From the human T2T-CHM13v2.0 reference genome, Homo sapiens: a stretch of 64,000 nt of DNA. A program made the position numbers and the translations under genes. The stretch is taken from assembly GCF_009914755.1 (NCBI RefSeq), contig NC_060935.1; one strand, given 5' to 3'. Below, piece by piece: positions 17,522-20,584 of this stretch (within the stretch, counting starts at the first letter, position 1; every line of letters starts with the position of its first letter). The notes under the pieces are model-generated. The model had not been told where the DNA came from. It ran no database searches and saw nothing but the letters and a program-made list of their open reading frames with translations.

Positions 17522-18429
17522 CCATCAGGATTATAAAAAAAGCTTTATTAGTGCATATATACAAATTTACAAGGTCAGAAACTGGAGAAATACAAAGAGC
17601 TTTAAAACACAATTTGCCGTTTCCTCAGTTTAAAGTGACTTTTACCTGATTGTGATACAACAGAAAGTACAGAACAGTAAACTGCTTTTTAAATACTGGA
17701 ATTTTATGGAGAATACATTCACATAAAGAAAGGAGGTGAATTTTGTTTTGGAACAGGGTTAAGACAATGGAGACATTAATACATAGAGTGTCTTGTTGTA
17801 TTTACTGCCACATACTTGAGGGGAAATTCTCAAAATCAAGGATATGAACACCTGCTGCTGCCTGTATGCCACCTAGTGTGCGAAACGACCGAGCTACCAG
17901 TTCTAGAACTTATGAGAACTACTCTAAAGAGTGTGGCCATCTATCAGCACGAGGTAAACCACTTAGACCTCAGCACTTCAGGGGTGGCCGACTAGAGAAA
18001 AGAGGCCAGAAAAAGCTTCAGACAATTCCAGTCAAGCAAGGTAGAATGCAGAGCTGCCTTCTGAATTGCACTTGTTCTGGAGGAGAAGTTAATTCTTCAC
18101 TTTTGTCAGGGAGTCCTCTACAGAAGTGTTATACTCATGAGCCACATGTTCTTCAAGACTGATGAGGTTAATACACCTAACATGCTAAGTTTGCCAGTTT
18201 GAGAATAAAGGCAGCATGGTCAAAGCAATTCCAATCACCTCATCCCTTTGCAAAAACAGAAAAATTACATTTCACAAAAGTGAAAACTTTGTATGCATAC
18301 ACTCTTGCCCAGGAAATTTATAAGATCTCCCCCATAACATTTATAGTTTATTTGACAATAAAACTGGTTAAGACTTTGAACTGAACACAAAACAAACAAT
18401 AATACAAAAAAGTTTTAAAAACTTAAAAA
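17522..18429 (-). other. FNBP4: FNBP4 3'UTR (3' end approximate)
   Basis: Repeat-free AU-rich sequence between the stop codon and the AATAAA at 17544-17549. Confidence 0.8.
17544..17549 (-). terminator. FNBP4: FNBP4 polyadenylation signal AATAAA
   Basis: tttatt on + strand; upstream UGUA motifs, including UGUAUAUA at 17556-17563, and U-rich downstream sequence. Confidence 0.8.
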
Positions 18430-18520
18430 CTATGTGTTTGGAGCCATTTTCCTTCTCTTCAGCCTTGCTCTCCAATCCTCAGGAAGGGCTTCAAAATTAG
18501 CATTTCTCTCTGCCATGCCA
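18430..18520 (-). CDS. FNBP4: FNBP4 last exon, coding part (SGMAERNANFEALPEDWRARLKRRKMAPNT*)
   Basis: Acceptor ttcacag|T; TAG stop at 18430-18432. The 15 exons sum to 2741 nt in one uninterrupted frame. Confidence 0.95.
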
Positions 18521-18749
18521 CTGTGAAAACAACATACAGATTATTTTAGTGGAAAGAAAAATTAACAAAAGTATTCATTTCCCAGCAAATAAAAATCTAA
18601 CTGAAATTAAAAACCTGATCTATCACGTCTATGTTTATGAAAATCTTTTGTTTCTCAGCCAAACATCAGTATATTCTTCATCAAACTTCTTCATTCTGAT
18701 AGGTCAACCAAACACTACCCCAGTTTTACGTATATGTCTAAGTGCATAT

Positions 18750-20300
18750 TTATTTATTTATTATTGACTGATTGAGACGGAATTTTGCTCTTGTTGCCCA
18801 GTCTGGAGTGCAATGGTGCGATCTCGGCTCACCGCAACCTCCGCCTCCCAGGTTCAAGCGATTCTCCTGCCTCAGCCTCCCCTCAGAGTAGCTGGGATTA
18901 CAGGCATGTGCAACCATGCCTGGCTAATTTTTTTTTTTTTTAGTAGCGACAGGGTTTCTCCATGTTGGTCAGGCTGGTCTCGAACTCCCAACCTCAGGTG
19001 ATCTGACTGCCTTGGCCTCCCAAAGTGCTGGGATTACAGGTGTGAGCCACCGTGCCCGGCCTTATTTATTTTATATAAATATACCTCCAATAACCATTAA
19101 AGGCACACTGAAGAAATGAAACACGTTCTATTAGAGTTTTTCTTAGCCCACAGGAGTTATGATTCTTCAGGGCAGATATATCTAATCCTCAGTCTACCAA
19201 CAGGGACCCTGGGATCTAATGTTTTTTTTTCTGTTTTTGAGATGGAGTCTTGCTCTGTTGCCCAGACTGGAGTGCAGTGGCACAATCTCGGCTCACTGCA
19301 ACCTCTGCCTCCTAGGTCCAAGCGATTCTCCTGCCTCAGCCTCCCAAGTGGCTTGGACTACAGGCGCCTGCCACCATGTCCAGCTAATTTTTATATTTTT
19401 AGTAAAGACAGGTTTTCACTATGTTGGCCAGGCTGGTCTCGAACTCCTGACCTCGTGATCCACCCACCTCGGCTTCCCAAAGTGCTGGGATTACAGATGT
19501 GAGCCCCTGTGCCCGGCCGGATCTAATGTTTTTGAGTTTCTCTTTCAAGTAGTTTTATTTGTAAGGATTAAAATTCAAATTCTATCTTGCAATTAACAGA
19601 ATGGATGCATTAGAACCTTTAATAAAAACTAAGCTAGAACCTATCAGAGATTAATTTGAAATCTGGCATCAGTAATAGACAGCTATATTCTAGGTTATAC
19701 ACTGACAATTGATGAACAGTGAGTTGCAGTCAAAGAATGCTGCCCATTTCAGAATGTATACCTTCAAAACAAGGAAAATATGAAATAAAAAATTGTACTT
19801 GCTGTGTCTAAAGTCTTTAAAATTTCTAGAATTTTTGAGAAAGCCATCTTCTTGCCTCAGCCTCCCAAGCATCTAGGACTACAGGTGTGAGCCACAGTGC
19901 CCACCCAACATGTTTTTTTTTTTTTTTTTTTGAGATGGAGTCTTGCTCTGTCGTCCAGGCTGGAGTGCAATAGCACGGTCTTGGCTCACTGCAACCTCCG
20001 CCTCGCGGGTTCAAACAATTCTTCTGCCTCAGCGATTACAGGCATTCGCCACCAGGCCCAGCTAATTTTGTATTTTTAGTAGAGATGGGGTTTCACCATG
20101 TTGGCCAGGCTGGTCTCGAATTCCTGACCTCGTGATCCACCCGCCTTGGCCTCCCAAAGTGCTGGGATTACAGGCGTGAGCCACCGTGCCCAGCCCAACA
20201 TGTGCTTTCATCATAAAAAATATTTCTGACCTGAGTGTGGTGGCTCACACTTGTATTCCCAACACTCTGGGAGGCTGAGGTGCAATTACTTGAAGCCAGT
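18750..20300. mobile_element. Alus in the last FNBP4 intron: 18750-19062, 19222-19518, 19845-20195 (-); fragment 20228-20300 (+)
   Basis: Alu consensus motifs. Confidence 0.9.
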
Positions 20301-20351
20301 TCTCCCTATCCTTTTATTCTAGTCAAGCAAGGTAGTGAAGGATTTTCTTAC

Positions 20352-20455
20352 CTAGAAGAGGTTCATTTAGTTCCTAGTGTGGTGTGCTCTCTCATTAACT
20401 TCTGTTCTAGAATAAGTGCAATTGAGAAGGCAGCTCTGTATTCTACCCTGCTTGA
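20352..20455 (-). other. FNBP4: Candidate 104-nt poison (PTC-containing) cassette exon in the last FNBP4 intron
   Basis: Acceptor tttttcccctgtccctatatttcag|TCAAG and donor CTAG|gtaaga; in-frame TAG at 20443-20445, 91 nt upstream of the next junction. Confidence 0.6.
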
Positions 20456-20584
20456 CTGAAATATAGGGACAGGGGAAAAACTTTATTCTAATTCTGTAAA
20501 TCATTTGTACAATAATGTGTGTGTGTATAAAAGGGTCTAATTCTATAAATTATTTGTAAAATAAGTTAATATGTTATGTGTGTA

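What the first reader, a model, noticed from the sequence alone, without database searches (positions are those of the whole stretch)
18029..20458. FNBP4 3'UTR carries a 65-nt antisense copy of an exon-like segment in the last intron (long-range pre-mRNA duplex)
Seen: 18029-18093 (mid-3'UTR) and 20394-20458 (last intron) are ungapped inverted repeats, 58/65 identical, 2.3 kb apart. I do not recognise either arm as an interspersed repeat. In the pre-mRNA they would form a ~65-bp helix (58 Watson-Crick, 1 G-U, 4 A.C, 2 C.C) covering the acceptor CAG and the first 62 nt of the candidate 104-nt exon. Inference: once the 3'UTR is transcribed, it could mask this exon, which would tie exon skipping to elongation and 3'-end timing. 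If the exon is included, the mature mRNA keeps a long dsRNA stem after the premature stop. This resembles known long-range structures that regulate poison exons, but the partner here is the gene's own 3'UTR. I cannot confirm whether it has been described. Caveat: the four A.C mismatches would be G-U pairs on the opposite strand, so the mismatch pattern alone does not prove selection on the sense strand.
Basis: partly seen in the sequence, partly recalled or inferred. Interest (0 to 1): 0.88.

Follow-up and report, generated by a model that had tools for sequence, protein, structure and literature searches.

The report
Two-copy inverted duplication inside FNBP4
A 69-base piece of the FNBP4 3'UTR also sits, flipped, in the gene's last intron, so the unspliced RNA could zip into a long helix, but nothing found here shows that the cell uses it.

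Summary
Window 18025-18093 and 20394-20462 are ungapped inverted copies, 61 of 69 identical, with sharp edges. They are the only two copies found in the reference genome by three kinds of search, while an ordinary interspersed repeat gave 2257 candidates. So this is a locus-specific inverted duplication, not a pair of transposon copies.

The helix is thermodynamically strong: -94 kcal/mol, and present in the minimum-energy fold of the 3595-nt exon16-to-poly(A) RNA.

It forms a local 32-bp stem (-41.6 kcal/mol) with the outer end of the intron arm. That stem already loops out the candidate exon and covers its acceptor before the 3'UTR is transcribed.

The candidate exon has believable splice sites and would bring in a stop codon. 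It is not in RefSeq, and 35 equal-or-better pseudo-exons lie in the same introns. The mismatch pattern gives no sign of selection on the sense strand. Conservation could not be tested.

Most likely this is a neutral duplication of primate to early-mammal age. A regulatory role is possible but unsupported.

The parts
18025..18093 (-). UTR arm (U): 69 nt in the FNBP4 3'UTR, 336-404 nt after the stop codon
   Evidence: (I1)
20394..20462 (-). Intron arm (R): inverted copy of U in the last intron, 61 of 69 identical. It covers the acceptor CAG and the first 62 nt of the candidate exon.
20304..20335 (-). Third copy (L). 20316-20335 is a direct copy of 18025-18044 (19 of 20). The whole 32 nt is inverted relative to 20443-20474 (26 of 32). 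It lies 16-47 nt downstream of the candidate donor in the RNA.
   Evidence: (D9, I5)
20443..20474 (-). Outer end of R plus 12 nt of flank: the partner of L in the local stem (-41.6 kcal/mol). It covers the end of the pyrimidine tract, the CAG and the first 13 nt of the exon.
20352..20455 (-). Candidate 104-nt pseudo-exon, not annotated. Acceptor CAG at 20458-20456, donor GT at 20351-20350, stop codon ending at its nt 13 in the FNBP4 frame.
20233..20300 (+). Alu piece that lacks its 3' part and abuts the palindrome. It is inverted relative to the full Alu at 19843-20201.
   Evidence: (I2-I4)
19843..20201 (-). Full Alu, about 35-50 nt from the inverted Alu piece. It is one of three same-sense Alus lying between the arms (also 18739-19087 and 19214-19519).
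18347..18352 (-). Proximal AATAAA, 77 nt after the stop. If used, it would give an mRNA without the UTR arm.
17544..17549 (-). Distal AATAAA that serves the annotated 3' ends (17502 / 17525)
18065..18075 (-). 11 nt inside the UTR arm that are exactly complementary, in the mRNA, to the start of the 3p arm of the MIR92A1, MIR92A2 and MIR25 hairpins
   Evidence: post hoc

Best explanation
A locus-specific inverted duplication. A 69-bp piece shared by the FNBP4 3'UTR and the last intron was copied once, in reverse orientation, over 2.3 kb. A further partial fold-back copy (L) then made a small palindrome in the intron. The event is old but not ancient (K2P 0.128, roughly 25-110 Myr). It probably belongs to the rearrangement that truncated the neighbouring Alu, next to a closely spaced inverted Alu pair. 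Shown: the copies, their uniqueness in the genome, the energies and the reading-frame consequence. Inferred: in the pre-mRNA the local L/R stem forms first and loops out the pseudo-exon. Once the 3'UTR is made, the much stronger U/R helix can displace L through the weakly paired inner 49 nt of R. This keeps the acceptor covered until the last intron is removed. I take this pairing to be a by-product of the duplication rather than a selected switch. Its most probable real-life effects are minor: some ADAR access to the arms, and a pseudo-exon that stays silent.
For: Only two loci in 3.1 Gb match: a 201-nt query, a 1019-nt query, a 33-mer with up to 3 mismatches (reversed control 0), and a sequence-only covariance model (the arms at E about 1e-18, the next 11 hits at E 0.2-10; 150 of 24580 loose candidates scored). 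The 8 weak hits that became loci (of 11) share nothing with each other. A control repeat gave 2257 candidates. The homology has sharp ungapped edges. Across the three copies of the 20-mer, U equals the majority sequence, L differs at 1 site and R at 2, which is a star-like pattern. There are 6 transitions, 2 transversions and no CpG. The Alu piece at 20233-20300 ends at the palindrome, and its 3' part is absent from 20475-20938. The full inverted Alu lies 35-50 nt away. Nothing on the sense strand indicates selection: 2 G.U to 4 A.C, and the antisense duplex is more stable. The pseudo-exon is not annotated, and 35 comparable ones lie nearby. The local stem is significant on its own: z = -4.19, with 0 of 200 shuffles folding as well.
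Against: Non-repeat inverted pairs of this size are rare. This is the best of only 6 unmasked pairs in the 64-kb window, and there were 0 in 200 kb of other chr11 genic sequence. Rarity leaves room for retention by selection. The helix covers exactly the acceptor of a segment that has good splice sites and a stop codon, which is a striking placement. It dominates the MFE by 41 kcal/mol. Neutrality is argued from the absence of evidence: I could not see other species, RNA-seq, editing data or proximity-ligation data. The link to the Alu rearrangement is inference from adjacency alone.
Confidence: 0.6

Rival explanations
1. The U/R helix is a selected long-range pre-mRNA structure. Together with the local L/R stem, it keeps a stop-codon-bearing pseudo-exon silent, or shortens the effective distance between the 5' and 3' splice sites of the last intron. 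Use of the proximal poly(A) signal (no U arm) or fast splicing would change the outcome.
For: The helix is strong and dominates the MFE. It covers the acceptor and 62 nt of a segment with good splice sites. That segment gives a stop 91 nt before the last junction. A proximal AATAAA lies upstream of the arm. Non-repeat inverted pairs are rare. Published genome-wide work finds that exons looped out by stable conserved pairings are included less often (PMC8052449, passages read).
Against: No annotated use of the exon. There are 35 comparable pseudo-exons nearby. The local stem already masks the acceptor without the 3'UTR. The mismatch pattern favours the antisense strand if anything. No paper in the library links FNBP4 with a poison exon or a long-range RNA structure. 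Conservation is untested.
Confidence: 0.17
2. Both arms are remnants of an old, low-copy DNA transposon (MITE-like). The intron element 20304-20474, with its 32-nt terminal inverted repeats, would be a near-complete copy, and the 3'UTR piece a fragment of a second copy.
For: The intron element has terminal inverted repeats (26 of 32) around a 107-nt core, which is the shape of a MITE. The mask table available here is word-frequency-like and would not flag an old low-copy family.
Against: No third locus turned up in the genome by any search. By inspection, there is no target-site duplication next to either possible end. Two independent insertions of a family with no other surviving copy, 2.3 kb apart and 88% alike, is much less likely than one local copying event. 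No Rfam family at E <= 1 overlaps the arms or the palindrome.
Confidence: 0.08
3. The function, if any, lies in the double-stranded RNA itself, or in the UTR arm alone. In transcripts that keep the last intron, a 69-bp helix would attract ADAR, nuclear retention or dsRNA sensors and would hide a miR-25/92-type site. In the spliced mRNA the UTR arm is simply a microRNA site, and the intron copy is irrelevant.
For: Inside the arm, 11 contiguous nt are complementary to the MIR92A1, MIR92A2 and MIR25 hairpins (1 of 500 shuffles reach 11 nt). The helix length is well above what ADAR needs (recalled knowledge). FNBP4 transcripts with retained introns are documented, though for another intron and in mouse (PMC9627664).
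Against: I chose the microRNA family after recognising the seed, so the shuffle test is post hoc. No editing or retention data for this intron were seen. The two papers that hold FNBP4 and 'A-to-I' did not look relevant from their search listing (titles and abstract starts; not opened).
Confidence: 0.1

Closest known systems
Long-range complementary pairs in human pre-mRNAs (PCCR catalogue, PMC8052449; RIC-seq-based PHRIC set, PMC10691357)
   Same: Two complementary stretches kilobases apart in one transcription unit, with stability far beyond the -15 kcal/mol used by PHRIC (abstract). One arm sits next to a splice site, and the geometry loops out sequence.
   Different: [quoted passage not shown] Here conservation and compensatory changes are untested. 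At 69 bp the helix is also far longer than typical catalogue entries (that typical size is recalled, not taken from a call).
Inverted Alu pairs in introns and 3'UTRs that form dsRNA
   Same: Origin by duplication of DNA rather than by selection for pairing. They form long, near-perfect intramolecular dsRNA and are likely ADAR substrates. This window holds 661 inverted pairs of at least 50 nt within 5 kb, almost all Alu.
   Different: The arms are not Alu or any multicopy element. The pair is unique to this locus.
Poison (NMD-coupled) cassette exons
   Same: A 104-nt segment, not a multiple of 3, with an in-frame stop more than 50 nt upstream of the last junction.
   Different: No annotated or published inclusion. 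Known poison exons are usually highly conserved (recalled), which was not testable here.
Exon loop-out by flanking complementary sequences (case studies in PMC8052449)
   Same: The local L/R stem flanks the whole pseudo-exon and would place it in a 107-nt loop.
   Different: The looped segment is a pseudo-exon with no known use, and the stem arose from a duplication.
Miniature inverted-repeat transposable elements (MITEs)
   Same: A 171-bp unit with 32-nt terminal inverted repeats.
   Different: No other copies in the genome and no target-site duplication (inspection).

Membership tests
Interspersed repeat / MITE | Many dispersed copies in the genome | tested here: not met
   2 loci only, against 2257 first-look candidates for a control repeat. 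Very old, low-copy families cannot be fully excluded, because only 150 of 24580 loose candidates were scored.
Interspersed repeat / MITE | Terminal inverted repeats | tested here: met
   20304-20335 against 20443-20474, 26 of 32. This applies to the intron element only.
Interspersed repeat / MITE | Target-site duplication flanking the element | tested here: not met
   By eye, in the sequence: the flanks of either candidate end are not direct repeats.
Conserved long-range pre-mRNA structure (PCCR-type) | Stable complementarity between two regions of one pre-mRNA | tested here: met
   -94.2 kcal/mol, and present in the MFE of the 3595-nt RNA
Conserved long-range pre-mRNA structure (PCCR-type) | Both arms in evolutionarily conserved, non-exonic, non-repeat sequence | tested here: not met
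   One arm is exonic (3'UTR), which the catalogue excludes by construction. Conservation was not testable.
Conserved long-range pre-mRNA structure (PCCR-type) | Compensatory substitutions across species | not testable with these tools
Conserved long-range pre-mRNA structure (PCCR-type) | In-cell contact (RIC-seq, PARIS, SPLASH) | not testable with these tools
   Reads are off and supplements are closed. FNBP4 occurs 0 times in the main text of PMC8052449.
Poison exon | Premature stop more than 50-55 nt upstream of the last exon junction when included | tested here: met
   The TAG ends at nt 13 of 104, 91 nt before the junction.
Poison exon | Observed inclusion in transcripts | tested here: not met
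   None of the 14 RefSeq FNBP4 transcripts listed has an exon between 18521 and 20938. RNA-seq was not available.
Poison exon | Functional splice sites | tested here: inconclusive
   PWM scores are within the range of real FNBP4 sites, but 35 other pseudo-exons do as well. AG dinucleotides at -27/-26 and -34/-33 (read from the sequence) restrict where a branch point can lie.
Inverted Alu dsRNA | Arms are Alu sequence | tested here: not met
   No SRP/Alu-type Rfam hit over the arms. The arms lie outside the masked Alu stretches.
miR-25/92-family target site (UTR arm only) | Seed complementarity in a 3'UTR | tested here: met
   11-nt exact complement to the reference hairpins. Conservation and repression were not tested, and the choice of family was post hoc.

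The most novel reading that the evidence does not exclude
A lineage-specific inverted duplication gave FNBP4 a two-stage RNA clamp. A local stem loops out a stop-codon-bearing pseudo-exon as soon as it is transcribed. The gene's own 3'UTR then takes over with a 69-bp helix. The choice of poly(A) site (the proximal signal at 18352-18347 gives RNA without the arm) and the timing of last-intron removal would then decide between productive mRNA, an NMD isoform, or a dsRNA-marked intron-retaining RNA in which a miR-25/92-type site is hidden.
Probability: 0.1. Interest if true: 0.7.

Novelty: new member of a known kind. Interest (0 to 1): 0.3.

Why it matters
If the helix forms in cells, it would be a clean natural test case. 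It is not Alu-derived and it is unique in the genome, so it can be targeted specifically. It could show how an exon-intron duplex that forms only after the 3'UTR is transcribed affects removal of the last intron and silencing of a pseudo-exon. Catalogues of conserved structures leave this class out by design. If it is neutral, as I think more likely, it illustrates that small inverted duplications near unstable inverted Alu pairs can create very stable pre-mRNA helices by accident. It also shows that placement over a splice-site-like sequence is not evidence of regulation.

Tried and rejected
Transposon origin. I looked for further copies with a 201-nt and a 1019-nt DNA query, a 33-mer pattern with up to 3 mismatches, a sequence-only covariance model on the whole genome and nhmmer on the 264 kb I held. 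Nothing turned up beyond the two arms. The best weak hit (L028) aligns only at low posterior probability, and the 8 weak loci share nothing with each other. I rejected this origin, with the caveat that very old low-copy families can escape these searches.

Known RNA family. At E <= 1, the Rfam hits in 17400-21200 are Alu-derived (SRP-like and Alu-type miRNA families), apart from a SCARNA7-like hit on the (TG)n tract, 28 bits against a gathering score of 65. None overlaps the arms or the palindrome.

One large transposon whose terminal repeats are the two arms. I considered this from the geometry and dropped it. The conserved-looking last coding exon and three later Alus lie between the arms, and the outer flanks are not direct repeats (inspection). 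I did not test it further.

Processed FNBP4 pseudogene as a time stamp or as evidence of exon inclusion. None was found with the whole last exon as query.

A-to-I-edited RNA intermediate as the source of the G/A differences. The differences run 4 in one direction and 1 in the other, which is not significant, and they lie outside the local stem. Dropped.

Literature. No paper in the library holds FNBP4 together with 'poison exon' or 'long-range RNA'. FNBP4 + 'cryptic exon' gave 1 paper, on another intron in mouse. FNBP4 + 'dsRNA' gave 7, + 'A-to-I' gave 2 and + 'nonsense-mediated' gave 7. Two of these, besides the paper, I opened for their FNBP4 passages, and neither bears on this intron; the rest did not look relevant from the listing. 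One search was badly designed: min_terms 2 without forcing FNBP4, and none of the 15 listed papers held FNBP4. It shows nothing. Supplementary tables were closed; these include the PCCR and PHRIC lists, editing catalogues and splicing tables, and they might list this pair or this exon.

Splice PWM caveat. The training set of 369 donors and 386 acceptors came from the 20 most exon-dense 10-kb bins of chr11. These are GC-rich, so AT-rich FNBP4 acceptors score low. The candidate itself fell just under its own rounded threshold, so it is not among the 35 counted.
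Full report
1. WHAT IS THERE

The repeat finder gives arms 18025-18093 and 20394-20462: 69 nt, 88% complementary, 2300 nt between them. 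An ungapped comparison gives 61 of 69 matches, and identity falls to background immediately outside both ends.

The match cannot be chance:
- blastn E is 2.7e-18 between the two sub-regions.
- The duplex energy is -94.2 kcal/mol. For 200 shuffles of one arm it is -19.7 +/- 3.9, and the best shuffle reaches -34.5.

2. IT IS NOT A MULTICOPY REPEAT

Four whole-genome searches of the reference returned only these two loci:
- a 201-nt query around the intron arm;
- the whole 1019-nt last exon;
- a 33-mer with up to 3 mismatches, where the reversed-pattern control found 0;
- a sequence-only covariance model of the two arms. The arms scored E about 1e-18. The next 11 hits had E between 0.2 and 10, the number expected by chance. 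Only 150 of 24580 loose candidates were scored.

Eight of those weak hits became loci. They share nothing with each other, and the best one aligns with low confidence.

As a positive control, a 177-nt interspersed repeat from the same window gave 2257 first-look candidates.

A caution on the masks. Of the 92 masked stretches supplied with the annotation, 84 are Alu, and one covers a coding exon. 'Unmasked' is therefore not proof of non-transposon origin, and a very old low-copy family cannot be formally excluded.

Non-repeat inverted pairs of this size are uncommon:
- Of 2735 inverted blastn pairs in the window, 6 have both arms unmasked. This pair is the longest and best of them. Three of the other five involve the Alu piece at about 20234-20299.
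- There were none in 200 kb of other gene-dense chr11 sequence.

- 20316-20335 is a direct copy of the first 20 nt of the UTR arm, 19 of 20 (D9).
- The 32 nt at 20304-20335 are inverted relative to 20443-20474, 26 of 32 (I5).

In the sense RNA these two form a stem of -41.6 kcal/mol. The stem encloses the entire candidate exon:
- Its 5' arm covers the end of the pyrimidine tract, the acceptor CAG and the first 13 nt of the exon.
- Its 3' arm lies 16-47 nt past the donor.

The 187-nt element folds at -58.6 kcal/mol, z = -4.19, and 0 of 200 dinucleotide shuffles fold as well. In the ensemble of a 501-nt nascent window, the outer part of the intron arm pairs with L with mean probability 0.87.

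FNBP4 is transcribed from high to low coordinates, so this local stem exists about 2.3 kb of transcription before the UTR arm is made.

4. THE LONG-RANGE HELIX

I folded the 3595-nt RNA that runs from exon 16 to the annotated 3' end.
- In the MFE, 63 of the 69 intron-arm bases pair with the UTR arm.
- Forcing the UTR arm single-stranded costs 41.4 kcal/mol. The intron arm then pairs with L (19 bases) and with itself.

Kinetics favours the local stem first.

A hand-over is plausible. The inner 49 nt of the intron arm are only about half paired locally and could act as a toehold. Whether the hand-over happens in cells is inference.

Geometry, read from the coordinates:
- The helix would place the real 3' splice site (18521), the stop codon and the first 336 nt of the 3'UTR inside a 2.3-kb loop.
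- It would shorten the path between the 5' splice site (20938) and the 3' splice site to roughly 900 nt.

5. THE 'EXON'

A simple position weight matrix was trained on 369 donors and 386 acceptors of chr11 'select' transcripts.
- The donor of 20352-20455 scores 8.2, the 40th percentile of real donors.
- The acceptor scores 5.3. That is the 8th percentile of the GC-rich training set, but higher than 10 of the 15 real internal FNBP4 acceptors scored in the window.
- AG dinucleotides at -27/-26 and -34/-33 (sequence) limit where a branch point can lie.

Inclusion would add three codons and then a TAG that ends at nt 13 of the exon, 91 nt upstream of the last junction.

Against this:
- None of the 14 RefSeq FNBP4 transcripts listed has an exon in this intron.
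- 35 other 50-250-nt pseudo-exons, with both sites at least as good, lie in the 37.4 kb of FNBP4 intron in this window. Four of them are in unmasked sequence.

6. SIGNS OF SELECTION

I found none.
- The eight differences are 6 transitions and 2 transversions, with no CpG.
- On the sense strand the transitions give 2 G.U and 4 A.C (binomial p = 0.69).
- The antisense duplex is the more stable one, -107.3 against -94.2 kcal/mol.
- In the 20-mer that exists in three copies, the UTR copy equals the majority sequence. L differs at one site and R at two. This fits a UTR source, or a slower-evolving UTR copy, with independently drifting intron copies.

The K2P distance is 0.128. With recalled primate-to-mammal neutral rates of 1.0-2.2e-9 per site per year, this gives about 29-64 Myr. 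The Poisson range is about 11-114 Myr, and the age roughly doubles if one arm is constrained.

7. ORIGIN (INFERENCE)

- Directly left of the palindrome lies an Alu piece, about 20233-20300 on the + strand. It stops in the early right-monomer region. Its 3' part is not found in 20475-20938.
- A full Alu in the opposite orientation ends 35-50 nt away (I3).
- Closely spaced inverted repeats are known to break and rearrange (PMC3855049, abstract seen in the listing; the classical inverted-Alu work is recalled).
- The sequence just upstream also carries a tandem duplication and a (TG)n tract (D6-D8).

I therefore think the inverted copy and the fold-back copy arose during repair or template switching at this unstable spot, after the Alu insertion, hence within primates. 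No outgroup genome was available to test this.

8. COMPARISON WITH WHAT IS KNOWN

The object works like the long-range complementary pairs catalogued in human pre-mRNAs. Looped-out exons are reported to be included less often (PMC8052449, passages read). However, that catalogue excludes exons and repeats by construction, so an intron-3'UTR pair is outside it, and FNBP4 does not occur in its main text.

By origin it resembles inverted Alu pairs, that is, duplicated DNA giving dsRNA. This window has 661 inverted pairs of at least 50 nt within 5 kb, almost all Alu. The FNBP4 arms are not Alu.

No paper in the library links FNBP4 with a poison exon or a long-range RNA structure. The published FNBP4 splicing events I could read concern other introns. 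Supplementary tables were closed.

9. VERDICT

The structure is real at the sequence and energy level, and it is unique in the genome.

The regulatory story is possible but unsupported, and it is weakened by three findings:
- the local stem already covers the acceptor;
- the segment has no annotated use and many equally good pseudo-exons lie nearby;
- the mismatch pattern is uninformative or mildly adverse.

My confidence in each reading is:
- neutral lineage-specific inverted duplication whose pairing is a by-product: 0.6;
- selected long-range splicing structure: 0.17;
- dsRNA or microRNA-site role: 0.10;
- transposon remnants: 0.08.

Interest is 0.3. I class it as a new member of a known kind.

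Noticed in passing
window 18065-18075 (and 18063-18073): Inside the UTR arm, the mRNA carries an 11-nt exact complement to the start of the 3p arm of the reference MIR92A1, MIR92A2 and MIR25 hairpins, and of MIR367 at the shifted position. All 7 family hairpins share at least 7 nt. Only 1 of 500 shuffles reaches 11 nt, but I picked the family after recognising the seed from memory, so the test is post hoc. Correspondingly, the intron arm reads like the start of such a microRNA over 9-10 nt.
   Followed up: partly
window 19843-20201 (-) and about 20233-20300 (+): A full Alu and an oppositely oriented Alu piece lacking its 3' part lie only about 35-50 nt apart. The piece ends exactly where the palindrome starts, which suggests an old rearrangement breakpoint.
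   Followed up: partly
window 20487-20636: A tandem duplication (29-nt units 49 nt apart; 22-nt units 99 nt apart, identical) surrounds a (TG)n tract at about 20577-20632. In the FNBP4 RNA this is a CA repeat about 120-180 nt upstream of the pseudo-exon acceptor (D6-D8). CA repeats are recalled as hnRNP L sites; this was not tested.
   Followed up: no
window 18347-18352 (-): An AATAAA lies 77 nt after the FNBP4 stop codon, upstream of the UTR arm in the RNA. RefSeq annotates only the distal ends at 17502 and 17525. Whether it is used is unknown.
   Followed up: no
window 57480-58182: A 703-nt 'masked repeat' covers the coding exon 57749-57967, and 84 of the 92 masked stretches in the window are Alu. 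The mask table therefore behaves like a word-frequency mask, not a transposon annotation.
   Followed up: no
window about 32550-33526 and the merged 'exon' 28648-33659: A published exercise-responsive FNBP4 splicing event (PMC12534703, passages) maps by length to the intron that holds the 25-nt coding micro-exon 33184-33208. A mouse study validated a detained Fnbp4 intron 11 (PMC9627664, passages). Both are unrelated to the last intron.
   Followed up: partly
window 20495-20722 (+): A sub-threshold Rfam hit to SCARNA7 (28 bits against a gathering score of 65, E 0.0006) lies over the (TG)n region and is probably spurious. The other sub-threshold miRNA-family hits in 18795-20281 lie on Alus.
   Followed up: no
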